NCBI GenBank assembly: GCA_009914755.4
Contig: CP068257.2
Location: 21,344,001-21,408,000 of the forward strand
DNA from: the human T2T-CHM13v2.0 reference genome, Homo sapiens
Length of the DNA: 64,000 nucleotides
Reading direction: 5' to 3'
Of the stretch, positions 1-50,160 are shown piece by piece. The notes beneath the pieces were generated by a model, which saw nothing but the letters and a program-made list of their open reading frames with translations, searched no databases and was not told the DNA's origin. The position numbers and the translations under genes are program-made. The number at the start of each line of letters is the position of its first letter. Positions within the stretch are counted from its first letter, which is position 1.

Positions 1-2720
1 AAACAGAAAGAAAATGACATTAGTGAGCAATATATAATCACCAGAAGGTATAAAACTCACTGGTAATGGTCAGTACAGAGAAACGCACAGAATAATATAA
101 CACTGTAACTATGGTGTGTAAACTACTTTTATCCTAAGTAAAAAGACTACAAAATGAACTAAACAAAAATAATTAACAACTACAACTTTTCAAGACTGAC
201 TATGTCTTTATGTCTTTTTGTACTGACTATAGTACAAAAAGATATAAAGAAAAAATGAAAAGCTAAAAAGCAGGCAGATGAAGTTAAGCACAGAGTTTTT
301 ATTAGTTTTCCACAAGAAAACTGTAGGTGCATATAAACAAATTCAATGAAGTTGCAGGATAAAAACTCAGCATACAAAATTCAGTAGTATTTCTATATAC
401 TAACAATGAACAATGTGAAAAGGAAGTAAAAATAATCCTATTTACAATAGCCACATATAAAGATAAATAGTTGGGAATGAACTTAACCAAAGAAGTGAAA
501 GATCTCTATGATGAAAACTATAAAACCGTGATGAAAGAAATAGAAGACACCCACCCCCCCCAAAAAAAGGAAAAAGATTCCATGTTCATTGATTGGAAGA
601 ATTATTAATAATACTGTTAAAATATTTATACTAAATAAAGTAATCTAGATTCAATGCAGTTCCTATCAAAATTCCAATGACATTCTTCAAAAATAAAATA
701 AGAATCCTAAAGTGCATATGGAACCACAAAAGATCCAGAATAGCCAAAGCTTTCCGAAGCAAAAAGAACAAAACTGGAGGAATCACATTACCTAACTTCA
801 AATTATACTATGGAACTATAGTAATTAAAAGAGCATGTATTGGCATAAAAACGGACACATAAAGGAAAGAGAATAGATAACCCAGAAAGAAACCTACACA
901 CCTACAGTTAACTCATTTTTGACAAAGCTGCCAAGAACATACACTGGGAAAAAGATCAATAGATGGTGCTGGGAAAACTGGACATCCATATGCAGAAGAA
1001 GGAAACTAAACCCCTATCTCTCACCATATACAAAAATCAAATCAAGATGGGTGAAGACCTAAATCTCTGACCTAAACCTATGAAGCTACTACAGGAAAAT
1101 ATTAGGGATTATCTCCAGGATATTGGTCTGGACAAAAATGTTTTGAGCAATACCCCACAAGCACAGGCAACTAAAGAAAAATTTGACAAAGGGATCACAT
1201 AAGTTAAAAAGCTTCTGCATAGCAAAGGATACAACCAAGACAGTGAGGAGACAAGTCCCAGAATGGAAGAAAATATTTGCAAACTACCCATCTGACAAAG
1301 GATTAATAACCAGAATACTTCAGGATCTCAAACAAGGCTATAGAAAACATCAAATAATCCAATAAAAAATGGAGAAACAGTCTGAATAGACATTTCTCAA
1401 AAGAAGACATAGAAATGGCAAATGGGCTTAGGAAAAAGTGCTCAACATCACTGATCATCAGAAAAATGCAAATCAAAACTACTATGAGATATTATCCCAC
1501 CCTAGTTAAAAGGAATTATATCCAAAAGACAGTCAATAACACATCCTGCTGAGGATATGAAGGGAACCCCTGTACACTATTGATGGGAATATAAATTAGT
1601 ATGACCACTATGGAAAACAGTTTGGAGGTTCTTCAAAAAACTAAAAATAGAACTACCATATAATCTAGCACCCCCAAACTGCTGGGTATATACCCAAGAG
1701 AAAGGAAATCAGTATATCAAAGAGATGTCTGCACTCCCATGTTTGTTGCAGCACTATTTATAATAATAACTAAGATTTTAAATCAACCTTTGTGTCTGAT
1801 ATGGTTTGGCTGTGTCCCCTCCCAAATCTCATATTGAACTGTAACTCTCATAATTCCCACCTGTTGTGGGAGAGACCTGGTGGGAGATAATTGAATCATG
1901 GGGGCGCTTTCCCCCGTATACTGTTCTTATGGTAGTGAATAAGTCTCATGAGATCTGATGATTTTATAATAGGTTTCTCCTTTTGCTTGGCTCTCATTTC
2001 TCTCATGTCTGCTGCCATGTAAGACATGCCTTTCATCTTCCACCATAATTGTGAGGCCTCCCCAGCTACATGGCACTGTGGGTCCACTAAACCTCTTTTT
2101 CTTTATAAATTACCCAGTCTCTGGTATGTCTTTATCAGCAGCATGAAAAGAGTGTCTATCAACAGATACATGGATATGGAAAATGTGGTACATATACACA
2201 ATGGAGTACTACTCAGTCATAAAAAAGAATGTGATCCATTCATTTGCAACAACATGAATAGAACTGGAGATCACCATGTCAAGTGAAATAAACCAGGCAC
2301 AGAAAGAAAAACATCATGTGTTATCACTTATTTGTGGGATCTAAAAATCCAAACAATTGAACTCATGGACATAGAGAGTAGAAAGATGATTACCAGAGGC
2401 TCAAAATGGAAGGAGGGGGCAGGGAGGCAGTGGGGATGGTTAATGAGTACACAAATTAGTTAGAGAGAATGAATAAGACCTACTATTTGATAGCACAACA
2501 GGGTGACTATATTCAATAATAACAATTGTACATATTAAGATAACAAAGAGTGCAATTGGATTGTTTATAACTAAAAGTATAAATGCTTAAAGGGATAGAT
2601 ACCCCATTCTTCATTATGTGCTTATTTCATGTTCTGTTATCAGAATATCTCATGTACTCCATAATTATATACACCTACTATGTATGCACAAAAATTAAGA
2701 ATAAAAAATAAAATAAAATA
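1..2720 (+). mobile_element. LINE-1 (older primate L1, L1PB/L1MA-like): ORF2 remnant plus 3' UTR. The 5' part lies upstream of the window, and the element is interrupted by a THE1 LTR at 1797-2151
   Basis: Plus-strand translation gives degraded L1 ORF2 motifs (FLYTNN..., [26 protein letters not shown] at 677-862, [26 protein letters not shown]). The 3' UTR ends in an A-rich tail at about 2690-2720 and carries the L1PB/L1MA-type terminal motif 'ctcatgtactccataattatatacacctactatgtatgcacaaaaattaag'. The first ~180 bp are too degraded to assign confidently. Confidence 0.8.
1797..2151 (+). mobile_element. Solo THE1-type MaLR (ERVL-MaLR) LTR nested inside the L1, bracketed by a 5-bp target-site duplication 'gtgtc' at 1792-1796 and 2152-2156
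   Basis: Starts with 'tgatatggtttggctgtgtcccc..cccaaatctcat..ataattcccac.tgttgtgggag.gacc..gtgggag.taattgaatcatggggg' and ends with '..tttataaattacccagtct.gggtatgtctttatcagcag..', the characteristic THE1 LTR termini. L1 ORF2 sequence resumes immediately after ('catcaacagatacatggatatggaaaatgtgg'). Confidence 0.75.
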
Positions 2721-17319: not shown

Positions 17320-18492
17320 AAAAGTTAACTCAAGATGGATTAAAGATTTTAAAGCCCAAAACCATAGAAACCTTTGAAGAAAACCTAGGCAAAACCGTTC
17401 AGGACATAGGCATGGGCAAAGACTTCATGACAAAAACACCAAAAGCAACTGCAACAAAAGCGAAAATTAACAAACAGGATCTAATTAAACTAAAGAGCTT
17501 CTGCACAGCAAAGGAAACTATTATCAGCGTGAACAGGCAACCTACAGAATGGGAGAAAAGTTCTGCAATCTACCCATCTGACAAAGGTATAATATCCAGG
17601 ATCTACAAGGAACTTAAACAAATCCAAAAGAAAAAAAAAACAAACAGCCCCATCAAAAAGTAGGCAAAAGATAGGAACAGATACTTCTCAAAAGAAGACA
17701 TTTATGCAGCCAATAAACATATTTTGAAAAGCTTGACATCACTGATCACTAGAGAAATGCAAATCAAAACCAAAATGTGATACCATCTCACGCCAGTCAG
17801 AATGGCGATCTTGGCAAGGCTGTGGAGAAATAGGAACACTTTTATACTGTTGGTAGGAATGTAAATTAGTTCAACCATTGTGGAAGACAGTGTGGCAATT
17901 CCTCAAGAATCTAGAACCAGAAATACCATTTGACACAGCAATCCCATTACTGGGTAAATACCCAAAGGAATGTAAATCATTCTACTATAAAGAAACATGA
18001 AAATGTATGTTTATTGCCGCACTGTTTACAATAGCAAAGACATGGAACCAACCGAAAAGTCCATCAACGATATACTGGATAAAGAAAATGTGGTACATAT
18101 ACACCATGGAATACTATGCAGCCATATAAAGGAATGAAATCATGTCCTTTGCAGGGACACGGATGAAGCTGGAAGCCATCATCCGCAGCAAACTAACACA
18201 GAAACAGAAAACAAAACGCTGCATGTTCTCACTCACGAGTGGGAGTTGAACAATAAGAACACATGGACACAGGGAGGGGAACAACACACACCGAGGCCAG
18301 TAGGGTGGTGGGGGTTGAGGGGAGGGAGAGCATTAAGACAAATAGCCAATGTGTGCAGGGCTTAAAACCTAGATGATAGGGTGATAGGTGCAGCAAACCA
18401 CCATGGCACGTGTATACCTATGTAACAAACCTACATGTTCTGCACATGTATCCTGGAAGTTAAAGTAAAATAAAAAATTAATAATAATAACA
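17320..18492 (+). mobile_element. LINE-1 3' end (mid-age L1PA-like), 5'-truncated: ORF2 C-terminus plus 3' UTR and poly-A
   Basis: ORF 17412-17663 reads [47 protein letters not shown], the L1 ORF2 C-terminal region. It is followed by 'ccatggaatactatgcagccat..', a G-rich 3' UTR block 'gggaggggaacaacacacaccgaggcc..ggggagggagagcattaag', the terminal 'gtgtatacctatgtaacaaacctacatgttctgcacatgtatcc', and an A-rich tail ending about 18492. Confidence 0.85.
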
Positions 18493-29592: not shown

Positions 29593-29925
29593 AAAACATA
29601 AAATAAACGGTAGATATTAGAAGCAATAAAAATATATGTTTTCATATTTAAACAGTGAACAAATTTATGCTTAGATTATATAACCTGTATTACTGGTTAT
29701 AAATAGCAATCACTATAAGCTTCCAGGAAAGATTATCCCAATAACTACTAAGATGTCTATGAATACATGAAATAAATGGAAAACTCACAACCCTTCCACA
29801 ATACACATGCAAACTAAAGTTTGCATTTGATGTGTACTTAAGAGTCTATGACTTATTTTAACTAACTATAATATCAACAGAACCTTAAAAAGCATTTTAA
29901 ACTCACCATGACTGAGGTTTTTCCT

Positions 29926-30229
29926 TTCTTTTTTTTTTTGTTTTTTTTTGAGACAGGATCTCACTCTGTCATCCAGGCTAGAGTACAGTGGTGCAATCTC
30001 AGCTCACTTCAACCTTTACCTCCCAGACTCAAGCAATCCTCCTTTGATCAGCCTCCTGAGTAGCTGGGACTACAGTCACACCACCACACCTGGCTAATAT
30101 TTGCATTTTTTGTAGAGATGGGGTTTTGCCATGTTGCCTACGCTGATCTCGAACCCCTGGGCTCAAGGGAGGCACCCGCCTCAGCTTCCCAAAGTGCTGG
30201 GATTATAGGCATGAGCCAATGTCCTGGCC
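29926..30229 (-). mobile_element. Alu SINE in minus orientation (older AluS/J-like)
   Basis: A T-rich tail complement, then 'gagacaggatctcactctgtcatccaggctagagtacagtggtgcaatctcagctcacttcaacc...cccaaagtgctgggattataggcatgagccaatgtcctggcc'. Confidence 0.85.
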
Positions 30230-32467: not shown

Positions 32468-32792
<325 letters not shown>

Positions 32793-33114
32793 TCAAAAAA
32801 ATGGTATTTACAAAAAGGCAACAAAAAGCTATTAAAGAAGACTCTATGGGGACTAAACTTCCAGATAGTTAACAGTCTTGGAGAAGTGAGTTCAGGATCT
32901 GCAGCTGCGTTTTTACTGAACTTTGTTACAAATCTAATCCTTTCTACACTGGTTTTTCTCTTCTACTCTCAGTTAATTGTCCCGTTACTTTTTCTCCGAA
33001 GCATGTTTGTTAGCCAGTGGAGGCTGGTGAAAATCTGTCCTAATTAGGACTTGGTTTTAGGCATTGTGCTTATCTCTGGATCTTGAGAGTTTCAATCTGG
33101 GAGTTTGGTCTTCT

Positions 33115-33296
33115 TGGTTTCCTTATCCTTTGATGACTCTAGTTGTGGGTTCAATAACAGATTAAGGGCACATAAAGGGGAACACAAGGGCACATAGAGG
33201 GGAACATCACACAATGAAGACTATCAGAGGGTGGATGTTGAGAGGAGGGAGAAGATCGGGAAAAACAACTAATGAGTACTAGGTTTAATACCTGGT
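33115..33296 (+). mobile_element. LINE-1 3' UTR fragment (L1PB-type) ending at '...ctaggtttaatacctgg'
   Basis: '..ggaacatcacacaatgaagactatcagagggtggatgttgagaggagggagaagatcgggaaaaacaactaatgagtactaggtttaatacctgg' matches the older-L1 3' UTR block '..gggagggagaggatcagaaaaaataactaatgggtactaggcttaatacctgggtgatgaaataatc..'. Confidence 0.6.
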
Positions 33297-33311
33297 ATTA
33301 AGGTATTAATG
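33261..33311. repeat. Left arm of a ~50-60 bp inverted repeat flanking the LTR12 (partner at 34101-34160)
   Basis: The reverse complement of 33261-33311 is 'cattaataccttaataccaggtattaaacctagtactcattagttgttttt'. The right arm is 'cattaataccttaaggtattaataccaggtattaagcctagtacccgttagttgtttcat'. The two are identical apart from an 8-bp indel ('aaggtatt') and about 4 substitutions. Confidence 0.75.
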
Positions 33312-34102
33312 TGTCCGGAATTGGTGGGTTCTTGGTCTCGCTGACTTCAAGAATGAAGGCCGCAGGCCCTCGAGGTGAGTGCTACAGTTCACAAAGGCGG
33401 CGTGGACCAAAAGAGTGAGCAGCAGCAAGATTTATTGCGGGCAAAAGAACAAACGCCCCAAGCCTGAAAGGCGACCCAAGCAAGTTGCAGCTGCTGCCTC
33501 AGGCAGCCTGCTTTTATTCCCTTATCTGACCACCACCCCCCCCCCCCACATCCTGCTGATTGGTCCATTTTACAGAGAGCTGATTGGTCTGTTTTGACAG
33601 GGTGCTGACTGGTGCATTTACAAACCTTTAGCTAGACACAGAGTACTGATTGGTGCGTTTACAATCCTTTAGCTAGACACAAAAGTTCTCGAAGTCCCCA
33701 CCCATCCTAGAAGCCCAGCCGGCTTCACCTCTCACCGTCCCTCGTCGCCAGACTCTGCAGCACCCAGCCCGGGCACTCTGGCAGCCCAGAGGGAGCTCAT
33801 CCCCCGATCAAGCCCGGCAGGCGCTGGTCGGCTGCGCCCAGTGCGGGGCCCGCCAAGCCCCCGCTCACCCGGAACCGCGCCGGCCGGCAAGCGCAGCGCG
33901 CGGACCCGGCCTCCGCTGGCACCTTTTTCTCCACACCTCCCTGCTAGCAGAGGGAGCGGGCTCCGGCCTCAGCCAGTCCCAGAAAGGTGCCTCCACAGCG
34001 CAGCGGCGGGCTGAAGGGCTCCTCAAGCGCGGCCAGAGCGGACGCCTAGGCCAAGGAGGCGCCGAGAGGGAGCAAGGGCTGCTGGCACGTTGTCACCTCT
34101 CA
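33312..34102 (+). mobile_element. Solo LTR12-family LTR (HERV9, ERV1 class), about 790 bp
   Basis: Begins 'tgtccggaattggtgggttcttggtctcgctgacttcaagaatgaagccgc.g.ccctcg.ggtgagtg.tacag.tc..aa.g..g.gtggacc.aaagagtgagcag.agcaagatttattgc'. It then carries '..cagcctgcttttattc.cttatctg.cc', a tandem array of 'ctgattggt..tttacaa.cctttagctagacaca.ag' units (CCAAT-box repeats) at 33553-33690, and a CpG-dense region at 33700-34080. It ends '..gggctgctggcacgttgtcacctctca', which is TG...CA-terminated like a retroviral LTR. Confidence 0.8.
33553..33690 (+). promoter_or_regulatory. LTR12 U3 tandem repeat array containing three 'ctgattggt' (inverted CCAAT / NF-Y-type) boxes
   Basis: 'gctgattggtctgttttgacagggtgctgactggtgcatttacaaacctttagctagacacagagtactgattggtgcgtttacaatcctttagctagacacaaaag'. 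Tandem 37-41-bp CCAAT-box units of this kind are the established hallmark of LTR12 U3 regions. Confidence 0.55.
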
Positions 34103-34160
34103 TTAATACCTTAAGGTATTAATACCAGGTATTAAGCCTAGTACCCGTTAGTTGTTTCAT
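34101..34160. repeat. Right arm of the inverted repeat flanking the LTR12. It includes an inverted L1 3'-UTR fragment '..aataccaggtattaagcctagtacccgttagttgtttc' in minus orientation
   Basis: See the left arm at 33261-33311. The reverse complement of this arm reads 'gaaacaactaacgggtactaggcttaatacctgg...', the same L1 3'-UTR segment at which the plus-strand copy ends at 33296. Confidence 0.75.
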
Positions 34161-34206
34161 TCCGCCACCCCCCAGTGCTGTCCTCCTACAGCTGCAATCC
34201 ACTTTC

Positions 34207-34738
34207 ACTTACGTGTTTTTGATGGTTAATACTGTCAGATTGATTAGATTTAAGGATGCAAAGTATTGTTCCTGGGTGTGTCTGTGAGGGTGTTGCCAAA
34301 GGAGATTAACATCTGAGTCAGTGGACTGGGAGAGGAAGACCCACCCTAATGTGGGTGGGGACTATCTAATCAATTGCCAGCTCCAGTAGAATAAAGCTGA
34401 CTTGCTGAGTCTTCCAATCATCATCTTTCTTCAGTGCTGGATGCTTCCTCCCCTGAACATCAGACTGCAAGTTCTTCAGCTTTTGGACTCTTGGACTTAA
34501 CACCAGTGATTTGCCAGCAGCTCTTGGGCCTTTGACCACACACCGAAGACTACATTGTTGGCTTCCCTACTTTTGAGGTTTTGGGACTCCGACTGGTTTC
34601 CTTGCTCCTCAGCTTTCAGACGGCCTATTGTGGGACTTCACCTTGTGATCATGTGAGTCAATACTCCTTAATAAACTTCCCTTCATGTATACATCTGTCC
34701 TATTAGTTCTGTCCCTCTAGAGAACCCTGACTAATACA
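34207..34738 (+). mobile_element. MLT2-like ERVL solo LTR
   Basis: '..gatggttaatactgtcagattgattag.tttaaggatgcaaagtattgttcctgggtgtgtctgtgagggtgttgccaaaggagattaacatctgagtcagtggactgg...cccaccctaatgtgggtgggga.tatctaatcaattg...agctgacttgctgagtcttcc...cttcagcttttggactcttggacttaacaccagtgatttgccag...tgtgggacttcaccttgtgatcatgtgagtcaatactccttaataaac..tgtcctattagttctgtccctctagagaaccctgactaataca'. Confidence 0.6.
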
Positions 34739-34994
34739 GGTAGGGTTAAGGATAGTAATGCTGCTACTTTGTAGGAGAGATGGGGAAAAAGGATCTAAGC
34801 CTAGTTTTTACCTCTCCTGACTGCTACTGTTTCCTTTCCTGACCCATTTTTTTTTTATTTCCATAAGGAATACTCTGGGCCTCTTTCTTATGACTGTTTT
34901 ATGGGTTTCATAAGTAAGATGTTAACTCTTAAGTTTCTGCAGCCTCCAGGCATTTCACATTGTCTGATCTGTCTGCAATGAACCTCACCAAATT

Positions 34995-35170
34995 GTCAGA
35001 TTTTTTATTTTTTAACTTTTATTTTAAGCTCAGGGGTACAAGTGCAGGTTTGTTACATAGGTAAACTTGTGTCATGGGGGTTTGTCTTGTAGATTATTTC
35101 ATCACCCAGGTATTAAGCCTAGGACCCATTAGTTGTTTTTCCTGATCTTCTCCCTCCTCTCACCATTAAA
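34995..35170 (-). mobile_element. LINE-1 3' terminal fragment (L1PB-type), minus orientation
   Basis: The reverse complement reads '..ggagggagaagatcaggaaaaacaactaatgggtcctaggcttaatacctgggtgatgaaataatctacaagacaaacccccatgacacaagtttacctatgtaacaaacctgcacttgtacccctgagcttaaaataaaagtt'. Confidence 0.65.
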
Positions 35171-35321
35171 AGATTGATTAAAAGAATCACCCTTGTACAC
35201 AAATGGCCATGACGTGAAGCATTTTCTCCTTGAATAAATAATTCCATTAGTAAATCCTTGCTCTGTTTCTGATATTAGTCTACCCATAGAGCTGTGATTT
35301 TGCCAGGATTCTCTTTGAAAT

Positions 35322-35390
35322 ATCATCATCATTATCATCATCACCCACCATTAACACCATCATCATCATTATCATTTCTGTAGCAACTCC
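35322..35390. repeat. ATC/ATG-rich trinucleotide-based simple repeat
   Basis: 'atcatcatcattatcatcatcacccaccattaacaccatcatcatcattatcatt'. Confidence 0.6.
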
Positions 35391-38300
35391 CTTTTTTTTT
35401 ACACTAGGTGACATCAACTTTTTCTGTCAGTCTTATCTCTCATAATTAAAACTATTTCTAGAATTATTTTGGTCTACTGTTCATACCAGTTCCTGTTTTC
35501 AGAATATCAGTGGTGTTCTTCAAATAAACTAATGTAAGCATATTTACTCAGTCTGACATCCTGAACTGAATTCTCTATGACTTTGGAATTCTAACTCTCC
35601 CCTCTAATTTCACACATCCTTAACTTACCTTTCCCTATGTTTTAACCAGTAAGCCAAATCTCCCTGATTCTCAACTCTTAACTTGTTAAACTGCTTCAGT
35701 ATTGCAGGATAAGCAGCATGACATGAGGTATGAAAGGTGCTTTACTTGCAATAATGAACTTTTGAGGTATTTTGTCCTCAGTCAACATTATGCTATGCAA
35801 ATTCATCTGGACTCTACACCTTTTATTCCTAGAATATGCCCAAGTGGATTAGGATACTCTGCCAAGAAGAAGTTTTTTTTTCTGAGAAAATAAAGAGGTA
35901 TCACTAATTTGGAGATTCTAAATAAAGAAGTATTAATAATTTGGAGAGTCTGAATACAAGAAATAAAGGAAGGTCATGGCCCGACAGATAATAACATTTA
36001 TTACGAACATGCACTGCTTTGGACCTTATCACAGTGGTATGGAACAAATAGAATAGATTAGAAGTACTCCCTCAAATATTTTAACACATATAAGGATGTA
36101 CATATGCATATTGTGCAAATGATTTTTTAATCACATATCAGCAGAAAGAGACTACATCTAATACATAGATGGCTTGGAAAAATTGGTTAAAATCTGAAAG
36201 AAATATTACATTAGACCCACTTTCATGAGAAAAAGCAATATCTTCTCTGGATGGCCCTGGCTGTTTTCCCTTCAGTAGCCTAGCAATGAAATCCCTTAGG
36301 TAGCCTAATAATTAAGAAGTCCAGTTGGACTTCTTAGCTTCTGGCTGAACCTAATGCTGATATTCAAAATTGTGAGGAATTTAGCATGTAAAAAGAGAAT
36401 TATTTTTTCAAGATTGCAACCATGTCTTGTAAAGATCAGTGTCTTCTGACTTAGTCTGTTTATCCACATTCTCTGTCTGCGGAAGGAGGCAAAGAATTTG
36501 ATGTTAACTGAAAGCAGAGACCAGTCTGTCCACGTGGTCCCAGTCTGCCTCTCCCTGAGATGTCAAGAGCCTTAAGAATCACTAGGATTCTAGTATCCTG
36601 TTAAGCCTGTGTATATAAAAAAGTTTGTTTTGTTTTTCATATGTTTATTTTATTTTTCTTCTATTCTGACCCTGTAGTATATCATTTGTGGTGTTTGTGC
36701 TTACGTTTGATTGACATCTTTTTTTTTCTATAACATGTAGTAAAATTATTTCAAATGGTGTAAGCAATGTTAAGCAAAGAAGACAAATCATATAGGCATT
36801 TAATACCTGATATAAAAATATAGAATTCTTTTAAAAGCAAGAAATCAAAAAACGGTGTTAAATTGTTTTTAATACTATATATTCTATAATAAACGTACAG
36901 TGATTCTGTATGTCTACATGCATAATTAAATATTGAGAGATACATAACAGAAAAAGAGCCGTTTGTGATATAACTATGTTCACTTTTATCATTTTAAGTT
37001 AATTATGTCTTACTAGTGATATAATAGTTGATATAGTAATATAGTGAATTTGTGACATAAGTAACTAATCTGCCTCCTTGTACGCTTCATGCTAAAGGCT
37101 ATGAAAATAGGAAAAGACTAAAATTTCAATGTCACGACAATTATTTGTTATTGCGAAAGAACAAAGTATGCAAAACTGGCCATTTTTAACAGGAAAATTA
37201 ATGCTTTAAAATATGCATTCATTGAATTCATTGGGTCTCATATTAAATTTTGGCTGTTTTCTTCATGGAGCCATAAAGTAAGCTCTCACTGTTATAGCAG
37301 AAGTCAATTAAGCTTGCTGTACACGAGGATGCATTGTATAGATGATGTTTTTGGTCTTGGAACTGAAGAGGAGAAACCACAAAAGAGACAGAGATGGAGT
37401 GTGCAGAAATTTTATTTGAATCTCAAAGAATGAACTTAACAGAAGTCTTGGGTATAGTAATATATGAACGGTGATAGTACTATGTGTGATTTTTATTCTA
37501 TCGCATAAAGCTAAATTTTTAACTTGACTCATAAATTTAATTTATAACCAGAATAAAATTATGCTACTTAAACCTAGCAAACACATAATTTTACCAAGCT
37601 TGAATTGATGTATACAGATTTTAAGTGATTTGTATGTTTAAAATTGAAAATTAACATGAAGAATTAACATGAAGAATGAATTAAAATTATTAATTAAAAT
37701 GGAAGACTAGTTTAAATGCCCTCAATATAAGAGTGATATTTGAAAGGATAGTGTATGAATGTTATGCAGCAGTACCAGCTAAATGAAATTTTCAAAACTT
37801 ACAGGACATCTAAAATTAATGGCATGTTTTATAGTTACAGGGGTCATTAGAAAATGGGAGACATGAAATATTTAAAACTGGATAGTATTTTAGAACATAA
37901 GCACAGTAGCTGGGTTGTGCATTTTGGCATATTCAGATATTTTTACAGGAATATTTTTTCATTCTTACCTTCTGAAAAAAGAAATAATTATTTTATTTGA
38001 TTATGCAGAATTTTAAGGTATCTGAATATAATATGGAATTACGGACTTCCAAAAAGAAATGAACTGTTAAAGATTCATTTCTGTTTCTCCAATTTTTCTT
38101 TCTCTTATAATTTTATTTAAAAATATTTTTGATATAATCTTTATTTCATTGAACCTCACATGCATATATCACAGATTTAGTAGACTATTGCCTTTATTGT
38201 AATAATCTCCTCTTTCTGTCAGTACTCCCAAGGATATCTGAAATATGGATCAGAGTAGATTATCCTAATCTTTTTATTACTTTTTTCAGTACAAGCATTC

Positions 38301-40287
38301 AAAAATATATTCAAAAAATAAACTTGTAAATATACAGTATATAATACTACTGATCTTCCCTTTTTAAATATTCAGCCTCAATTTTGTTCCCATTCATCAG
38401 ATTGGCTTGAGTGGTATGAGTCCTTCTTTGCCAACTCCTGCCTGCTTACTCAGGGTATTTTCTGAGGCCCAAAGACTGAAGGAGTCACCTCTAGGCAACC
38501 CTCACTCACTTGTGGGAAATCATGTGCATTTCTATCATCCCATAAACATCTTCATCTCATGACAGCTTTTAAACTGTTTGGAAACCTACTCCGCATGCCT
38601 AGAGATTTAGCAAAAGGAGAAGGATAAGTAAAAAACAGAGCCTTGGTTTTTAGTTTTTATTTTTACTCTATCAACATCAATGATTTTGCATCTAGTTTAG
38701 CAAGGAAATGATCGGCTCTGTGTCTCGGTGCTCTGGGAATTTTATCTCATCATTCAAAACTCCTACCTTACTTAACTGTTTGAAAGTAATGTCAATTTCT
38801 TCTTATAAGTAAAGGTGTTAGTTTGCCATTGTTACATATGGCATCACATAGTATGTATTAATACATACATAAGTACATTTGATTTAAAGAAAATTTAAAA
38901 CTTCTTCAAATTAATCATTTCTAAATCACCAGTACAAAATATTGAATGACTGGTGGACAGTAAATATTGTGGAGTCCTGGACAAAGTCTTTTTTATCACA
39001 CTATGTCAACAACATTAAGTGCAATTTTTGAAACATATTTGGCACTCAGAAGAGTTGTAAATAAGTGAATGAATGAGTAAATGAAAGGCAACTATAATTG
39101 GAGTTAGTGGTAGGAAATAAAAGTCAATACATAGAAACAAGATTTTCTCAAACATTGAGGTTGCTTTTCTTTTTTTATCCAGTGATAATTTTGAGCTCCT
39201 AAATCATGTTATTCTAGTTCCCCACAATTAAACTGTCAATGTTTTATTCTATAAGTACTATCTTCATGTAAATCAGACAAGCAGATTATAGAGCAGCATA
39301 CAATACATGTCAGCAGGATAAACGTGCGTCACATCAAATCAAATTGGTTTGAATTGGGTTGAATCTGTATTTATGATAACTATTTGGATGTTTCATGAGT
39401 AAGGTAGGAAACTACTTATTGGAAGGTTATATTTGGTTTTTCTTCCTGAGCATTTACAAGTTCTCTTGTATGTGGTTTTATCAACTTTAACCCATTTATG
39501 CCTGAGGTTGCAATTTTTTGAATTTTTGCAATCAGACCTTGGCGATGACCTTGAGCAGTAGGGTATAAATAACTTCCACATGCTTAGCAGTCCAATAATG
39601 GAACAGTAGGCACAAATTCGTTAAATAGAACCAGAATACTTAATACACTAGACATTTGTTTAAAAAGTCATTTATCTAAAACAGCTTAAGTACTTTGATC
39701 AAAAGTGTTTAATAAAGCCAAAAAAAAAGTCACCAAAAAATGTTTGTATTGTTTTTGGTTGGTTTGTCATTATAAGTATCGTAATATGTCAGTCAGTAGG
39801 GTATGTTTAAATTTACTGCCAAATTTCCACAGCCTGCTCATTTTGTGGGTAATAAATATTACACTGTCAATAAAATCCTTAAAAATAGGAGAATTTCAGT
39901 CAACATTTTTTGATTCCCCAGATTTTTAATTTTGTTATTGAGTCAGAGAAAATAATTATGATATATGGGAACCAAAGTTTCAGCATTCGAGAGATGCCAT
40001 ATCTTATGAAAGAATTAGTATCTTTGTCTATGTAAAAATAAAAATCTACTCATACTCTGAAGTCTTTATTTTGGGAGAATACATAATTTTAGCCAATTCG
40101 GATAGCAGGTTTTATGCCATTACTAGATTGCTTGCATGTCTTGCAGTATCTCGACCTAGGCCTCTTTTCTTGCCTATTGGAAGTCATATTCATGTCAGTA
40201 TTTGTTTGGACGACATAGTCTACAGCTTTAAGAGCTTGAATCCCCACCTGAGGAATTGATCAAGTCACTTAACCACTCTGTGCTTCT

Positions 40288-43317: not shown

Positions 43318-44339
43318 TAATTTTTGTGGGTACATAGTAGGTGTGTGTATATATATGGGGCACATGAGATGTTTTGATACAGGCATGCAATGTGTCATAA
43401 TCACATCATAAAGAATGAGATATCTATCCCCTCAAGCATTTATCCTTTGTGTCACAAACAATCAAATTATACTCTTAGTTATTTTTAAATGTATGATTAA
43501 GTTATATAGTCACCTGTTGTGCTACCAAATAGTAGGTCCTTTTGATTCATTCTATTTTTTGTACCTATTAAGCATCTGTACCTCCTCTACACCACCCCCA
43601 CCCCCCGACTACTCTTCCCATCCTATGGTAACCATCCTTCTACTCTCTATGTCCATTAAGTGTAATTATTATGATCTTTAGATCCACAAATATGTGAGAA
43701 CATGCAATTCTGTATTTCTGTGCCTGGCTTATTTCACTTAACCTAAAGATCGCTAGTTTCACCCATGTTGTTGCAAATGACAGGTCTCATTCTTTCTTAT
43801 GATTAATTAGCACTCCATTGTGTATGTGTAGCACGTTTTCTTTATCCATTTATCTGTAGGTGAACACGTAGGTTGCCTCCAAAACCTGACTACGTGAGTA
43901 GTGCTGTAATAAATATGAGAATGCAAATATGTCCTCAATATACTGATTTCTTTTGTTTGGGGAATATAGCTAGCAGTAGTATTGCTGGGTCACATTTGTA
44001 TTCTATTTTTTCATTGTTGAGGAATTTTCATGCTGTTCTCTATAGTGTTTGTGCTAGTTTATATTCACACCAACAGTGTTTAAGGGTTCCCTTTTCTCCA
44101 TATTCCCACTAGCATTTGTTATTGTCTGTCTTTGTATAAAAGCCATTTTTTACTGGGGTGAGATGATAACTCATAGTAGTTTTGATTTGCATTTCATGCA
44201 AATCACATCATGGTCGGTGTTGAGCACCTTTTCATATGACTGTTCGACATTTGTATGTCTTCTTATGTGAAATGTCTATTCAGATCTTTTGCCTATTTTT
44301 AAGCAGATTATTAGATTTTCTCCTATGAAGTTCTCATCA
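43318..44339 (-). mobile_element. LINE-1 3' UTR plus ORF2 C-terminus (L1PB/L1MA-type), minus orientation. The 3' terminus is at about 43318
   Basis: The reverse complement of 43318-43400 gives '..caaaacatctcatgtgccccatatatatacacacacctactatgtacccacaaaaattaaaataaaaat', an L1PB-type terminus like the one at 2640-2720. It is followed by the antisense of L1 ORF2 ('..atttcacttaacctaaagatcgctagtttcacccatgttgttgcaaatgacag..', '..ttcccactagcatttgttattgtctgtctttgtataaaagccattttttactggggtgagatgataactcatagtagttttgatttgcatttc..'). Confidence 0.7.
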
Positions 44340-47300
44340 TTTAGCTGCCACTTAAAAGTGAGAACATGTGGTATTTGGTTTTCTATTTCTGCATTAGTTT
44401 GCTAAGGATAAAAGCCACCAGCTCCAACTATGTTCCTGCAAAAGTCATTAATTTTTAAGGCTACATAGTATTCCATGGTGTAATCTCTACCATATTTTCT
44501 TTATCCTATCTGTCATGGATGGACATTTAGGTTTATTCTATGTCTTTGCTATTGTGAATAGTGCCTCAATGAATATTTGTGTGCATGTGACTTTATAGTA
44601 CAATAATTTATATTCCTCTAAATTTATACCCAGTAATGGTATTGTTCTGTTTTTAACTCTTTGAGAAATCACCATACTGCTTTCCATAATGGCTGAACTA
44701 ATTTACACTCCCATCAACAGTGTATAAGTGTTCCTTTTTCTCTGCAATCTTGTCACCATCTTTTTTTTTTTGACTTTTTAATAATAGCCATTCTGCCTGA
44801 TGCAATATAGTATCATCGTGGTTTTGATTTGCATTTCTCTAATGATTAGACTTTTTAATATGCTTGTTGGCCACATTTGTTTTTCTGTTTTTTTTTGTTT
44901 GTTTTTTTTTTTTTTTTTTTTTGGAAAAGGGTCTGTTCAAGTCATTTGCACACTTTTTAATGGGGTTGTTTCTTTTTCCCCTGTAAATGTGTTTAAGTTT
45001 ATTATAGATGCTGGATATAGACCTTTATAGATGCATAGTTTGCAAATATTTTCACCCATTCTCTAGGTTATCTGTTTACTCCATTGATGGTGTTTTTTTT
45101 TTTTTTCCTGTGCAGAAGCTCTTTAATTAGATCCCATTTGTCCATTTTTGCTTTTGCTTGATTGCTTTTGATGTGTTTCTCATGAAGTCTTTGCCCATTC
45201 CTGTGTTCAGGGTGTATTGCCTACGTTATCTTCCAGGGTTTTTTAAATAAGATTTTGGTTTTACATTTAAATATTTAATCCATCTTGAGTTGATTTTTGT
45301 ATATGGTGTAAGGAAAGTGTCCAACTTCAATCTTCTGCACCATTTATTAAAGAGTAAGTATTTTCTCCATTTCTTGTTTTTGTCAGTTTTGTTGAAGGTC
45401 AGGTGGTTGTAGGTGTGCGGCCTTATTTCTGGGCTCTCTATTCCATTTTGTTCATCTATGTGCCTGTTTTTGTACCAGTACCATGCTATTTTGGTTACTA
45501 TAGCCTTGTTTGAAGCCAGGTAAAATGATGCCTCCAGCTTCGGTATTTTTGCTGAGAATTGCCTTGGCTATTTGGGCTGGTTTTGTTTCCATATCAATTT
45601 TTAAATAGATTTTTTGGGTTCTGCAAAGAATGTAATTGGTAGTTTGAGAGAAATAGCATTGCATCTGTAAATTGCTTTGGGCAGTATGGTCATTTTAATG
45701 ACATTGATTCTTCCTCTTCATGAGAATGGGAAGTTATTCCATTTATTTGTGTCTTGTCTGATTTCTTTAAGCAGTGTTTTGTAATTCTCATGGTGGAGAT
45801 CTTTCACCTCCAGGTTAGCTGGATTCCCAGATATTTTATTCATGTTGTGGTAATTGTGAATGAGATTGCCTTCCTTTTCTGGCTCTCAGCTTGACTGTTT
45901 TTGATGTATAACCCATTATTTTTAGCTGATAATAACTTTGTTTGCATAAACAAATAAAATACTAATAAAAACTCTACTTTGTCCACCAGCTTTTTTTTTT
46001 TCTATTTATATGTTATGGTACTGTGTCTTAAAAATTGTTGTAGTTATTTTTGATTGGTTCATCATTTAGTTTTTCTAGTATGAATAAAGATAGTTTCCAC
46101 CCACAGTTGTGATAATATTCTGTGTTTTTCTTTGAAATCATTATTAGCAGTGAGTTTTGTAACTTCAGTTGATTATTTATTGCTTATTACCATCCTTTTC
46201 TTTCTGATTGAGCATTTCTTATAGGACAGATCTGATGTTGATGAAATCCCTCCATGGGAAAATTGTTTGTCTGGGAAAGTTGTTATTTCTTCTTCATTAT
46301 GAAAGGATATTTTTATTAGGTATACTATTCTAGAGTATTTTTTATTTCAGCATGTTAAATCTTTAAATATGTTATGCCGCTCTTTCCTGGCCTGTAGGAC
46401 TTTCACTGAAAAGTCTATTGTGAGATGTCTTAGAGCTCCATTGTGTGCTATTTGCTTCTTTTATCTTGCTGCTTCTAAGATCTTTTGTTTATCCTAGATC
46501 TTTCAGAGTTTGATTGTTAAATGCCTTGAGGCAGTCTTCCTTGGGTTAAGTTTGCCAGGTTTCTATAACCTTCTTGTACTTGGAAATTGTTTTCTTTCCC
46601 TAGGTTTGGTAAGTTCCTTATTATTATTCTTTTGAGTAAACTTTCTACCCCTATCTTTTTCTCTACTTCTTCTTTAAGGGCAATAACTCAGATTTGCATT
46701 TTGAGGTTATTTTCTAGATCCTGTAGGCATGCATTATCATTTTTTATTCTTGTTTCTTTTGTCTCCTCTGACTGTATATTTTCAAAGAGCTTATCTTCAA
46801 GCTCACTAATTCTTTATTCTGCTTGGTAAATTCTGGTATTAAAAGACTATAATGCCATTCTTCAGTATGCCCATTGCATTTTTCTACTTAATTCGTTTTA
46901 GTTATTTCAACCTCTTGTGTAATATACATGATGGAATTCTAAATTACTTCTCTGCATTATCTTGTATTTCTTTGAGTTTCCTTGAAACAGCTATTTTGAA
47001 TTCTCTCTCTGAATGGTCACATGTCTCTTTTTTCCAGGATTGGTACCTGGTACCTTACTTAGTTCATTTGGTAAGGTCATGTTTTCCTGGAGTGTCTTGA
47101 TACTGGTAGATGTTCATCTGTGTCTGGCCATTGAAGAATTATGTATTTATTATAGTCTTCACTGTCTGAGCTTGTTTGTACCTGTCTTCCTTGAGAAGGC
47201 TTTCCAGATATTTAAAAGGACTTGTGTGTTGTAATCTAGGCTGTATCTTCTTTTTCATGGGAATAAAAGTGGTTTCTGAGAAAATAAAAAAAGATAGACT
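44340..47300 (-). mobile_element. LINE-1 body (ORF2 C-terminus through the ORF2 N-terminal / ORF1 region), minus orientation, old family. It re-duplicates the ORF2 C-terminal segment already present in 43318-44339
   Basis: It starts with the antisense of the ORF2 end ('..ctgccacttaaaagtgagaacatgtggtatttgg..'). Antisense L1 ORF2 blocks follow, for example 'catggtgtaatctctaccatattttctttatcctatctgtcatggatggacatttaggtttattctatgtctttgctattgtgaatagtgc', 'cactcccatcaacagtgtataagtgttcctttttctctgc', 'gaagctctttaattagatcccatttgtccatttttgcttttgcttg' and 'tttgttcatctatgtgcctgtttttgtaccagtaccatgctattttggttactatagcc', continuing to about 47300. The 5' extent is uncertain. Confidence 0.65.
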
Positions 47301-49147: not shown

Positions 49148-50014
49148 TAACCTTGCTGCTTTCTTAACCTATAACAGCCAATTTCTACTATTTCACCCTT
49201 TGTACTCATTTTTCAGTTGCCACTATCAATATTTGGTTTTATGTTTTATCTTCAAGGGAAACTTGCCCAAGTCTGTGGTTTCTCTATTACACATGTAAAC
49301 AGAATCTTAATTTTTTTCAGAATATTTCCCCAATTATACTGCATGTAAAATAAATCATTATTAGGAAAAGAAATAACAATTTTCTAGGGAGGAAACAATC
49401 TAGAACACAGTTCAATAAGCATTTGCATTATGCTTCTTGTGAATATTGGCTTAATATTTTTTACACACACTACGCTCTGAATTCCAGGAGTCTAGGAATT
49501 GTATTTACTTTGTTCTCCAGTGTATCTATCTCTAGTCCCAGGGCAATGTTCTAGACATTGTCAAAATTTAACAACTATACACTAAATAAATTAATTCAAT
49601 TGACACCTTAGAATAATGTTGCTTATCTTCAATCTGCTAACCAAGAATGCCAACTGAAATGCAAGACAACTGCTTTCTACTTAGTTTATGCCCCTGCATG
49701 TTGAGGATGTAAATCAACTTATTGCCTAGCAGAGTTATTAAAATAAAAATTATGTTTACTCTCAGTATTCGATATAAATTTATAATAAAAAACAATCAGT
49801 GACATATACATTTTATTAACACCTTGGTTGAGCAAAAAAAACAGATTAACCTTAATGCAAAATTCAACCCAAAGTTTAGTGATTGCTTTGGAAACGTAGG
49901 TATACACTTTTTTATCTCTAGTACTTAAGATAGTTCATTTTGCTATTTATACAAATATTTAAATTTAAAATGACTAATAAAAACTGTATCTTTTGGAAAA
50001 TCTTTCTTATACAA

Positions 50015-50160
50015 TGAAAGGAGTGAGAAAATAAGGAAAAATTAGGTAATGGATACTAGGCTTAATACCTGCAGAATGAAATAATCTGTATAACAAACCC
50101 CCATGACACAAATTTACCTATGTAACAAACCTGCACATGTACCCCTGAACTTAAAAATTA
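50015..50160 (+). mobile_element. LINE-1 3' terminal fragment (L1PB-type)
   Basis: 'gaaaggagtgagaaaataaggaaaaattaggtaatggatactaggcttaatacctgcagaatgaaataatctgtataacaaacccccatgacacaaatttacctatgtaacaaacctgcacatgtacccctgaacttaaaaatta'. Confidence 0.65.

What the first reader, a model, noticed from the sequence alone, without database searches (positions are those of the whole stretch)
33240..34170. LTR12 (HERV9) solo LTR sits exactly at the centre of a ~50-60 bp palindromic duplication built from L1 3'-UTR ends
The left flank 33261-33311 ('..aacaactaatgagtactaggtttaatacctggtattaaggtattaatg') and the right flank 34101-34160 ('cattaataccttaaggtattaataccaggtattaagcctagtacccgttagttgtttc') are reverse complements of each other, at about 92% identity with one 8-bp indel. 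Each arm is the terminal part of an L1PB-type 3' UTR broken at the same position ('..ctagg[c/t]ttaatacctgg'). The plus-strand L1 3' UTR continues upstream of the left arm. Nothing L1-like continues beyond the right arm; MLT2 LTR sequence follows. Retroviral integration makes short direct TSDs of 4-6 bp, not inverted repeats. So the LTR12 either integrated into the apex of a pre-existing perfect palindrome (a hairpin- or cruciform-prone site, perhaps created by a foldback duplication of the L1 end), or the structure reflects a more complex rearrangement. I could not identify an unambiguous direct TSD for the LTR; the candidates are 'ttaat' or 'attaat'.
Basis: seen in the sequence. Interest (0 to 1): 0.5.

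Follow-up and report, generated by a model that had tools for sequence, protein, structure and literature searches.

The report
Solo LTR inside L1 fold-back scar
A retroviral solo LTR sits almost exactly in the middle of a ~110-bp palindrome that is a DNA-repair scar in an old L1 element, apparently one junction of a small ~1-kb inversion; it is a neat but ordinary example of known mutational processes.

Summary
33259-33309 and 34103-34163 are reverse complements: 50 of 53 aligned bases match, with 2-nt and 8-nt gaps. They flank a 793-bp TG...CA element (33310-34102) with LTR12/ERV9 hallmarks.

With LTR and one TTAA removed, the site is a 108-bp AT-rich quasi-palindrome (hairpin -35 kcal/mol, z -11.7). 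That TTAA forms the predicted apical loop, 4 bp from the overall dyad.

Both arms are L1 3'-end sequence broken at the same base (...CCTGG). The centre is built only from the L1 8-mer TTAATACC and its complement.

It overlaps the left L1 piece by 61 bp, shares three rare variants with it, has no target duplication of its own, and abuts an inverted copy (13/16) of a 16-mer upstream of the left piece.

Best reading: one L1 insertion was broken. A ~1.0-kb segment was inverted with a 61-bp inverted duplication and a snap-back copy at one junction. HERV9 later integrated at the palindrome centre and collapsed to a solo LTR. No orthologous empty site could be retrieved. This is a new example of known mechanisms; interest is modest.

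The parts
33094..33109 (+). Candidate 5' target-site duplication of the L1 insertion (AATCTGGGAGTTTGGT)
   Evidence: Matches 13/16 the sequence directly after the poly(A) of the inverted L1 tail (rc of 34987-35002). Shuffle p about 0.02.
33113..33131 (-). Possible 19-nt inverted L1 piece (twin-priming-like) between the TSD and the sense L1; weak
   Evidence: 15/19 to the reverse complement of L1 consensus 162-180. Not significant on its own (p = 0.12).
33135..33295 (+). L: sense L1 3'-region fragment, robustly aligned from 33163 (own consensus positions ~200-337). It ends at ...CCTGG and lacks the last 93 nt and the poly(A). It contains a 22-bp tandem duplication at 33164-33206.
   Evidence: Alignment to a consensus built from 38 independent L1 3' ends. 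94/110 identical over 33186-33295.
33235..33295 (+). D, copy 1: 61-bp stretch of L that is duplicated in inverted orientation at 35106-35166
   Evidence: blastn 91.8% over 61 bp. Shares rare variants 22A, 34A and 47C with copy 2.
33259..33309 (+). Left palindrome arm (L1 end plus centre stutter TATTAAGGTATTAA)
33306..33309 (.). LTR target-site duplication, left copy (TTAA)
   Evidence: Directly abuts the LTR's 5' TG.
33310..34102 (+). Solo LTR of ERV9/LTR12 type, 793 bp, TG...CA
   Evidence: 41-nt U3 repeats. ATTGG (CCAAT) x4, AGCTAGACA x2, TCCCCAC x1, GC 61.5%, matching the motif set in PMC11853044. 3' end ...GTCACCTCTCA is identical to the end of an LTR12-like copy in L047.
34103..34106 (.). 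LTR target-site duplication, right copy (TTAA)
   Evidence: Directly abuts the LTR's 3' CA.
34103..34163 (-). Right palindrome arm (centre stutter TTAATACCTTAAGGTATTAATA plus R)
34125..34163 (-). R: 39-nt antisense copy of L1 consensus ~299-337 (snap-back copy). It starts at the same CC(W)GG as the end of L.
   Evidence: 34/37 identical to L and 35/37 to T. Carries the shared variant 47C.
34164..35002 (-). Non-L1 genomic DNA inferred to be inverted together with the L1 tail. It includes a MaLR-type LTR at about 34221-34738.
   Evidence: Lies between R and the poly(A) of T. No L1 similarity. Inversion is inferred from the L/T relation and the TSD orientation.
34987..35002 (-). Candidate 3' target-site duplication of the L1 insertion (rc = AATCTGACAATTTGGT), directly after the poly(A)
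35003..35166 (-). T: the L1's 3' tail with A-rich tail, in inverted orientation (own consensus 277-430). 35106-35166 is copy 2 of the 61-bp duplication D.
   Evidence: 142/152 identical to the consensus. Of 66 L1 copies it is the closest to L: 90.9% vs next best 84.1%. No TSD of its own.

Best explanation
The locus is a layered mutational scar with no indication of function.

(1) A 5'-truncated L1 of the L1PB/L1MA 3'-end type inserted in + orientation with a ~16-bp target duplication.

(2) Either during that retrotransposition or later, the L1 was broken at ...TTAATACCTGG. The free 3' end snapped back on itself, using the CC/GG 2-nt microhomology around the central T. It copied about 39 nt of its own sequence in reverse, with stuttering on the 8-mer TTAATACC/GGTATTAA.

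The other side of the break comprised the L1 tail, the poly(A), the 3' TSD and about 0.84 kb of flanking DNA. This was rejoined in inverted orientation. The result is a ~1.0-kb inversion bounded by a 61-bp inverted duplication of L1 sequence (33235-33295 / 35106-35166) and, at one junction, a ~108-bp AT-rich quasi-palindrome.

(3) A HERV9 provirus then integrated at a TTAA on a local dyad of that palindrome, which is the predicted apical loop of the hairpin or cruciform. It made a 4-bp TSD and later collapsed to a solo LTR by LTR-LTR recombination.

Shown directly: the arms, their L1 identity and common break point, the TSD, the LTR features, the inverted tail with its 61-bp overlap and shared variants, and the hairpin energetics.

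Inferred: the order of events, the snap-back and inversion mechanism, and the provirus-to-solo-LTR step.

Why the LTR sits at the centre is unresolved. Possibilities are integrase preference for distorted or cruciform DNA, survivorship of palindromes stabilised by a central spacer, or chance.
For: - Arms: score 73 vs null 14.6 +/- 3.3.
- Both arms align to an L1 3' consensus built from independent copies and stop at the same base, consensus 337.
- The fold-back motif occurs in none of 81 other L1 3' ends, so it is locus-specific and not a subfamily trait.
- The centre consists only of TTAATACC and its complement.
- TTAA directly abuts TG...CA on both sides.
- The empty-site hairpin is -35 kcal/mol, z = -11.7, with TTAA as the loop. 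The TSD centre is the dyad of a 20-bp perfect palindrome.
- The LTR12 motif set and the 3' terminus are confirmed.
- Inverted L1 tail: L covers consensus ~200-337, T covers 277-430 plus poly(A), and R covers 299-337. Together they make exactly one L1 3' fragment.
- L and T share 22A, 34A and 47C, each present in 5-6 of 65 independent copies. None of the 65 has three or more of these.
- T is the nearest of 66 copies to L, closer than the consensus.
- T has no TSD of its own, but the 16 nt after its poly(A) match an inverted 16-mer upstream of L at 13/16.
- Literature: L1-associated local inversions and inverted duplications with preserved TSDs, 2-bp microhomology hairpins and 3'-truncated inserts (10.1101/2024.12.14.628481). 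Fold-back templated inverted duplications of 5-34 bp at DSBs (PMC11724301). MLV integrase in vitro prefers the tops of cruciform loops (PMC3279379).
Against: - No empty or uninverted orthologous site could be retrieved, so the order of events is inferred.
- The L1 TSD match is only 13/16 (p about 0.02). Its 5' copy ends 25-30 bp before the securely aligned L1. The 19-nt inverted piece that could fill this gap is not significant (p = 0.12).
- L is more diverged from the consensus than T: 14.5% vs 6.6%. This is partly explained by that part of L1 being more variable in all copies. Private changes in the shared 61 bp are 4 vs 1, which is not significant.
- The sample used for variant frequencies was selected by an exact 23-mer, so it may under-represent some subfamilies.
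- A 1-nt loop is sterically impossible for a true intramolecular hairpin. The 'snap-back' may instead be an inter-strand template switch.
- Genome-wide, MLV integration is not enriched at cruciform motifs (PMC9962126). Structure-directed integration is therefore not established for gamma-type integrases in vivo.
Confidence: 0.6

Rival explanations
1. Stand-alone fold-back. A break in the L1 deleted its last 93 nt plus poly(A) and some flank, and was sealed with a snap-back inverted copy. There was no inversion. The L1 3' end at 35003-35166 is an unrelated, independent insertion, possibly homogenised with L by gene conversion. HERV9 then integrated at the palindrome centre.
For: - The arms, centre and TSD are explained equally well.
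- L1 3' ends are very abundant. Other copies lie at about 18.3 kb and 50.0 kb in this window.
- L is more diverged from the consensus than T.
- The inverted TSD match is only 13/16.
Against: - It needs several coincidences. T starts inside L and supplies exactly the part L lacks.
- T shares three rare variants with L, and no one of 65 independent copies has all three.
- T is the closest of 66 copies to L.
- T lacks any TSD of its own.
Confidence: 0.22
2. The position of the LTR is mechanistic. The palindrome extruded as a cruciform or was otherwise distorted, and HERV9 integrase preferentially attacked the stem next to the 4-nt apical loop. This concerns only why the LTR is central and is compatible with either origin of the palindrome.
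For: - The TSD TTAA is the predicted loop of the minimum-energy hairpin and the dyad of a 20-bp perfect palindrome.
- In vitro, MLV and other integrases favour sites at the top of cruciform loops (PMC3279379 and the Katz work cited there).
- Weak palindromic target consensus is general for retroviruses.
Against: - This is a single event and was found because of its symmetry, so there is ascertainment bias.
- The minimum-energy structure has an ensemble frequency of only 0.011, and a second TTAA 8 bp away is an equally good apex.
- The insertion is 4 bp off the outer-arm dyad.
- Genome-wide MLV data show no enrichment at cruciform motifs (PMC9962126).
- Central interruption stabilises palindromes, so survivorship alone could enrich for such cases (established knowledge, not tested here).
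Confidence: 0.25
3. The inverted arm arose together with, or after, LTR integration, for example through aberrant integration or a later rearrangement around the LTR.
For: No empty site was available to exclude it directly.
Against: - The LTR has intact TG...CA ends and a canonical 4-bp direct TSD, as expected for normal integration into an already symmetric site.
- The arms differ by 3 substitutions and 2 indels, and the right arm carries the ancestral state at positions where the left arm is mutated.
- No known integration mechanism copies about 50 bp of flank in inverted orientation.
Confidence: 0.03
4. The arms are terminal inverted repeats of a DNA transposon that carries the LTR, or the structure is an assembly artefact.
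For: - TTAA is the piggyBac target site.
- Perfect inverted ends do occur as artefacts in some metagenome contigs (L004, L058).
Against: - The left arm is colinear with L1 for at least 95 nt beyond the arm.
- There is no TSD outside the arms.
- The arms are L1 sequence by alignment to 66 copies.
- The arms are imperfect (substitutions and indels), unlike the 100%-identical artefacts.
Confidence: 0.01

Closest known systems
L1-associated local inversions and inverted duplications from remodelling of ORF2p-generated DSB ends (bioRxiv 10.1101/2024.12.14.628481)
   Same: [quoted passage not shown]
- The TSD is preserved in inverted configuration.
- A small-hairpin inverted duplication with 2-bp microhomology.
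- A 3'-truncated, non-polyadenylated L1 piece at the other junction.
- A blunt (0-1 bp) end-joined far junction.
   Different: - Those cases are somatic (cancer or induced cell clones) and were seen immediately after the event. This one is an old, fixed germline allele.
- Whether it arose during retrotransposition or at a later break cannot be told.
- Here the duplicated material is L1 sequence itself (61 bp and 39 bp), not flanking genomic DNA.
Fold-back (snap-back) templated inverted insertions at double-strand breaks; Pol delta / Pol theta-type synthesis-dependent end joining (PMC11724301; PMC5728401)
   Same: - An inverted copy of the sequence immediately adjacent to the break.
- Microhomology at the turn.
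- Iterative stutter on a short motif.
- The other end captured by end joining.
   Different: - 39 nt plus about 37 nt of stutter is at or above the upper end of the 5-34 bp reported in yeast.
- The enzymes cannot be inferred from sequence.
Inversions flanked by inverted duplications from staggered breaks (Ranz et al. 2007, PMC1885836)
   Same: A single-copy stretch (61 bp) is now present once at each end of the inverted segment, in opposite orientation.
   Different: - Only one breakpoint shows a duplication.
- The scale is about 1 kb rather than kb to Mb.
- There is an additional snap-back copy at one junction.
Twin priming of L1 (Ostertag and Kazazian 2001)
   Same: Two oppositely oriented pieces of one L1 RNA or insert with a short overlap.
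   Different: - The orientation is convergent, not divergent.
- The pieces are separated by 0.84 kb of non-L1 DNA.
- The poly(A) faces inward.
- At most the weak 19-nt piece at 33113-33131 could be a twin-priming product.
Retroviral integration into cruciform or bent target DNA (Katz et al. 1998 as cited in PMC3279379)
   Same: Staggered 4-bp cuts flank the predicted apical loop of a stable hairpin. The local target is palindromic.
   Different: The known evidence is in vitro. This is a single fossil event, and genome-wide MLV data show no cruciform enrichment (PMC9962126).
Palindromic AT-rich repeats (PATRRs) of human 11q23/22q11
   Same: An AT-rich, cruciform-prone near-palindrome in a primate genome. 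A central interruption is expected to stabilise it.
   Different: - About 108 bp versus several hundred bp.
- Derived from an L1 break.
- No evidence of polymorphism or translocation activity.

Membership tests
ERV9 / LTR12 solo LTR | TG...CA termini | tested here: met
   TGTGTCC... at 33310 and ...CCTCTCA at 34102.
ERV9 / LTR12 solo LTR | U3 tandem repeats of about 41 nt carrying CCAAT (NF-Y), GATA-like and GTGGGGA motifs (PMC11853044) | tested here: met
   Four related units at 33548-33660, two of them spaced 41 nt apart. ATTGG x4, AGCTAGACA x2, TCCCCAC x1. Only about 4 units, at the low end of the reported 5-17.
ERV9 / LTR12 solo LTR | Sequence similarity to other LTR12 copies or the consensus | tested here: inconclusive
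   74-82% identity over about 700 nt to one LTR12-like element in L047, with an identical 3' end GTCACCTCTCA. No Dfam/Repbase consensus was available, so the subfamily is unassigned.
ERV9 / LTR12 solo LTR | Short direct TSD (4 bp expected for gamma-like class I ERVs, from my own knowledge) and no internal sequence | tested here: met
   TTAA on both sides, with 793 bp between them.
L1 3' end (L1PB/L1MA type) | Colinear alignment to an L1 3'-end consensus | tested here: met
   Consensus built from 38-66 independent copies. L 94/110, T 142/152, R 34-35/37 identical. The subfamily name L1PB is not testable here.
TIR DNA transposon | Arms are element termini bounded by a direct TSD and are not part of another repeat | tested here: not met
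   The left arm continues colinearly into L1. There is no direct repeat outside the arms.
L1 twin-priming inversion | Inverted 5' piece directly abuts the sense 3' piece with poly(A), within one pair of TSDs, in divergent orientation | tested here: not met
   L and T are convergent, are 1.7 kb apart (0.9 kb without the LTR), and the poly(A) faces inward.
Inversion with inverted duplication at breakpoints | The same originally single-copy stretch is present at both ends of the segment in opposite orientation | tested here: met
   61 bp at 91.8% identity. Shared rare variants. T is the nearest of 66 copies to L.
Inversion with inverted duplication at breakpoints | Independent marker of reversed order, here the two TSDs of one L1 in opposite orientation | tested here: inconclusive
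   13/16 match, correctly placed after the poly(A), p about 0.02. The 5' copy is 25-30 bp from the secure L1 start.
Inversion with inverted duplication at breakpoints | Uninverted arrangement in an outgroup | not testable with these tools
   No primate genomes are accessible. Pattern scans and protein look-ups gave nothing.
Fold-back templated inverted insertion at a DSB | Inverted copy starts at the break point itself, with microhomology at the turn, and the far end is joined to unrelated DNA | tested here: met
   ...TACC-T-GGTA... turn with CC/GG. R ends abruptly at 34163|34164.
PATRR | Several-hundred-bp near-perfect AT-rich palindrome, polymorphic, translocation-prone | tested here: not met
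   108 bp, 67% AT overall and 74% AT at the centre, imperfect. Polymorphism was not testable.

The most novel reading that the evidence does not exclude
The whole L1 configuration arose in one step during the original germline L1 retrotransposition. The configuration comprises a 3'-truncated sense piece, a snap-back copy, and an inverted poly(A) tail with about 0.84 kb of flank and an inverted TSD. This would make it an ancient, fixed example of the ORF2p-break 'end-remodelling' rearrangements so far documented only in cancer genomes and induced cell clones. In addition, its cruciform-prone junction was later hit at the hairpin apex by a HERV9 integrase, giving a natural in vivo record of structure-directed integration.
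Probability: 0.25. Interest if true: 0.5.

Novelty: new member of a known kind. Interest (0 to 1): 0.3.

Why it matters
On its own the locus has no evident function. It is a fossil of three known processes stacked on one another: L1 insertion, break repair with snap-back and inversion, and retroviral integration followed by solo-LTR formation.

Its value is as a worked example in three respects.
- Flanks of an insertion that look palindromic can hide a normal palindromic TSD.
- A '3'-truncated' L1 may have its tail nearby in inverted orientation.
- Small L1-associated inversions or inverted duplications, recently described somatically, may also be fixed in primate germlines.

A genome-wide search for convergent L1 piece pairs with overlapping coordinates and inverted TSDs would test how common this is. 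A similar search for ERV insertions at palindrome dyads would address integrase preference.

Tried and rejected
**Retrieval of an orthologous or empty site**
- An empty-site pattern gave 0 hits in metagenome contigs.
- L1 and fold-back patterns gave 0 hits in viral contigs.
- An LTR12 5' pattern and the fold-back signature gave 0 hits in prokaryotic genome contigs.
- Exact-protein look-ups of four window ORFs were all 'not on record'.
- The large homology searches were not spent, because the chance of hitting a non-human primate copy of this unique locus seemed very low.
- One metagenome contig (L028) is this very locus at 99.5% identity, but it covers only 34730-36171 and does not reach the palindrome.

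**Twin priming as the origin of L/R or L/T**
- Rejected on orientation and spacing.

**TIR transposon**
- Rejected (see membership test).

**Recurrent or subfamily feature**
- Rejected. The fold-back motif is absent from 81 other L1 3' ends.

**A second MaLR LTR in inverted orientation, as an independent inversion marker**
- None found within 29.0-39.5 kb.

**Continuity of flanks in other copies**
- U, V62 and Z have no paralogues in the 145 kb of host-derived contigs.

**The 19-nt inverted L1 piece at 33113-33131**
- Not significant.

**Possible extension of R beyond 34163 into L1**
- The G-rich alignment was judged spurious.

**L004 and L058 as possible further cases of inverted L1 pairs**
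- Their inverted ends are 99.7-100% identical and reach the contig ends. They are most likely assembly artefacts.
Full report
**1. The observation**

A local alignment of 33230-33312 with the reverse complement of 34099-34185 scores 73. It pairs 33259-33311 with 34101-34163: 50 of 53 aligned bases are identical, with 3 mismatches and gaps of 2 and 8 nt. The repeat finder reports the same pair (I1, I3).

Random flank pairs at the same spacing in this window average 14.6 +/- 3.3, and none of 3000 reaches 73. The inverted repeat is therefore real and not chance.

**2. The insert**

Bases 33310-34102 (793 bp) begin TGTG and end CTCA. Other features:
- GC content is 61.5%, with CpG observed/expected of 0.63.
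- There are four related ~23-nt units, two of them exactly 41 nt apart.
- There are four ATTGG (inverted CCAAT) boxes, two AGCTAGACA and one TCCCCAC.

This is the motif set given for the ~41-nt U3 repeats of LTR12/ERV9 in PMC11853044. An LTR12-like element found by chance in a host-derived metagenome contig (L047) is 74-82% identical over about 700 nt. It ends with the same ...GTCACCTCTCA, which fixes the 3' boundary at 34102. No repeat library was available, so the subfamily is not assigned.

**3. The target-site duplication**

With these boundaries the LTR is flanked by TTAA at 33306-33309 and at 34103-34106. This is a 4-bp direct repeat, as expected from general knowledge of gamma-like class I retroviruses. 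Because TTAA is its own reverse complement it also reads as part of the inverted repeat.

**4. The reconstructed empty site**

Removing the LTR and one TTAA gives a 108-bp quasi-palindrome, 67% AT overall and 74% AT at the centre.
- As single-stranded DNA it folds into one long hairpin of -35 kcal/mol. Shuffles give -9.0 +/- 2.2, so z = -11.7. The 4-nt loop is the TTAA that became the TSD. The ensemble frequency of that exact structure is only 0.011.
- The TSD centre is the dyad of a 20-bp perfect palindrome. It lies 4 bp from the dyad of the outer arms and 8 bp from the dyad of an adjacent 28-bp perfect palindrome.

'At the centre' is thus correct to within 4 bp.

**5. What the arms are**

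No library was at hand, so I collected 79 host-derived contigs carrying the L1 23-mer CTAGGCTTAATACCTGGGTGATG and built consensus sequences from 38-66 independent copies.
- The left side aligns colinearly from at least 33163 to 33295, at consensus ~200-337. 94 of 110 bases are identical over 33186-33295. It stops at ...TTAATACCTGG, where L1 normally continues GTGATGAAAT.
- The right arm (34125-34163) is the reverse complement of consensus ~299-337 and starts at the same CC(W)GG.
- Everything between the two L1 ends is made of TTAATACC (the last L1 8-mer before the turn) and its complement GGTATTAA, partly overlapping.
- The signature TTAATACC-W-GGTATTAA occurs in none of the 81 other L1 3' ends, in no other L1 copy of the window, and in neither public collection scanned. 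It is a locus-specific event and not an L1 subfamily feature.

A TIR transposon is excluded. The left arm runs on into L1, and no duplication flanks the arms.

**6. The missing L1 tail**

A self-comparison shows that 33235-33295 is also repeated, inverted, at 35106-35166 (61 bp, 91.8% identity). Reading that region and aligning it shows a complete L1 3' end on the minus strand. It covers consensus 277-430 followed by the A-rich tail (35003-35166), with 142 of 152 bases identical to the consensus.

The three pieces are:
- L: consensus ~200-337, plus strand.
- R: consensus 299-337, minus strand.
- T: consensus 277-430 with poly(A), minus strand.

Together they make exactly one 5'-truncated L1, with its middle present two or three times.

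L and T share three variants (22A, 34A, 47C in the numbering). Each is present in only 5-6 of 65 independent copies, and none of the 65 has three or more. A fourth shared variant sits at the very edge of the homology and is discounted. R also carries 47C. Over the informative columns T is the closest of 66 copies to L, at 90.9%. The next best is 84.1%, which equals the consensus.

T has no target-site duplication of its own (best direct match is a displaced 6-mer). However, the 16 nt that follow its poly(A) (rc of 34987-35002, AATCTGACAATTTGGT) match AATCTGGGAGTTTGGT at 33094-33109, upstream of L and on the opposite strand. The match is 13/16, with shuffle p about 0.02.

The 5' copy lies 25-30 bp before the securely aligned L1. 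A 19-nt stretch in between resembles inverted L1 (15/19) but is not significant (p = 0.12).

**7. Interpretation of the L1 pieces**

The simplest account is one L1 insertion that was later, or at once, broken at consensus 337. The segment 33296-35105 (about 1.0 kb without the LTR) now lies inverted. It comprises the L1 tail, the poly(A), the 3' TSD and 0.84 kb of older flank including a MaLR-type LTR. It is bounded by a 61-bp inverted duplication, and R plus the stutter act as a templated snap-back insertion at the left junction.

The far junctions (34163|34164 and 35166|35167) show no microhomology, as in end joining. R (39 nt) is shorter than the duplicated stretch (61 nt). This fits a model in which about 60 nt of the 3' end were single-stranded and the terminal GG re-primed on the CC two bases upstream.

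A true 1-nt hairpin loop is sterically implausible, so an inter-strand template switch is equally possible.

These outcomes are all described for remodelling of L1 ORF2p-generated break ends in cancer genomes and induced clones (10.1101/2024.12.14.628481):
- local inversion that includes the polyadenylated insert and adjacent genomic DNA;
- TSD preserved in inverted configuration;
- small-hairpin inverted duplication with 2-bp homology;
- 3'-truncated non-polyadenylated inserts.

Fold-back templated inverted duplications at ordinary breaks are documented in yeast (PMC11724301). Inversions flanked by inverted duplications are documented in Drosophila (PMC1885836). Whether this event was coupled to the retrotransposition or happened later cannot be decided from one genome.

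**8. Caveats on the inversion**

L is more diverged from the consensus than T (14.5% vs 6.6%). That part of L1 is more variable in all copies: sample means are 15% vs 9%. Within the shared 61 bp the private changes are 4 vs 1, which is not significant. It still leaves room for the rival that T is an independent insertion (about 0.2). No outgroup was available.

**9. Order of events and why the LTR is central**

Several points argue that a normal integration hit an already symmetric site:
- The LTR has intact ends and a canonical TSD lying on a local dyad.
- The arms have diverged from each other by substitutions and indels, with the right arm retaining ancestral states.
- No integration mechanism produces 50-bp inverted flanks.

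In vitro, MLV integrase favours the tops of cruciform loops (PMC3279379). Genome-wide, however, MLV sites are not enriched at cruciform motifs (PMC9962126). This case was ascertained through its symmetry, a second TTAA apex lies 8 bp away, and central interruption is known to stabilise palindromes. I therefore give structure-directed integration about 0.25. The remainder goes to chance or survivorship.

**10. Verdict**

The locus is an L1 break-repair scar, namely a fold-back palindrome at one junction of a small inversion, into whose centre a HERV9 integrated with a TTAA duplication. All components belong to known kinds. Novelty is that of a new example, and interest is modest (0.3). It would be higher if primate comparisons show that the L1 rearrangement arose in one step during germline retrotransposition.

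Noticed in passing
window 33164-33206: A 22-bp tandem duplication (AAGGGCACATAAAGGGGAACA / AAGGGCACATAGAGGGGAACA, 95% identical) inside the sense L1 fragment. It complicates placing the L1's 5' boundary.
   Followed up: partly
L028 (ENA metagenome contig OUNP010039137.1), equal to window 34730-36171: A metagenome contig is this same locus at 99.5% identity (7 differences in 1443 bp), evidently host DNA in a metagenome assembly. It confirms the T / poly(A) / flank arrangement independently but does not reach the palindrome.
   Followed up: yes
L004 1-746 vs 1770-2516; L058 1-97 vs 1014-1110 and 1117-1217 vs 2483-2583: Two host-derived metagenome contigs carry 99.7-100% identical inverted duplications reaching their ends. 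These are probably assembly chimeras, not biological L1 palindromes.
   Followed up: partly
window 34102-34123: A 22-bp perfect palindrome ATTAATACCTTAAGGTATTAAT begins with the LTR's last base. The 13-mer TTAAGGTATTAAT also occurs as a direct repeat at 33298-33310 and 34111-34123. Both are consequences of the palindromic stutter, not a long TSD.
   Followed up: yes
window 32468-32762 and 29919-30218: An Alu with an (AAAT)n-type tail lies just upstream of the locus. It has an inverted Alu partner about 2.3 kb away (73% identity).
   Followed up: no
window 33533-33548: A C-rich tract within the LTR (CCACCACCCCCCCCCCCAC), upstream of the CCAAT-box repeats.
   Followed up: no
window 36313-36336 and 38851-38868: Two further short palindromes (24 bp at 92% and 18 bp perfect) turned up in the self-comparison.
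   Followed up: no
L047 about 922-1973: An LTR12-like element, 5'-truncated, lies next to L1 ORF2-like sequence in a JGI metagenome contig. It was used only to confirm the LTR's 3' terminus.
   Followed up: partly
window 17391-18480, 44321-45910, 50010-50150: Other L1 fragments in the window. The one at 50010-50150 is a short 3' end of the same type as L/T but lacks their shared variants.
   Followed up: partly
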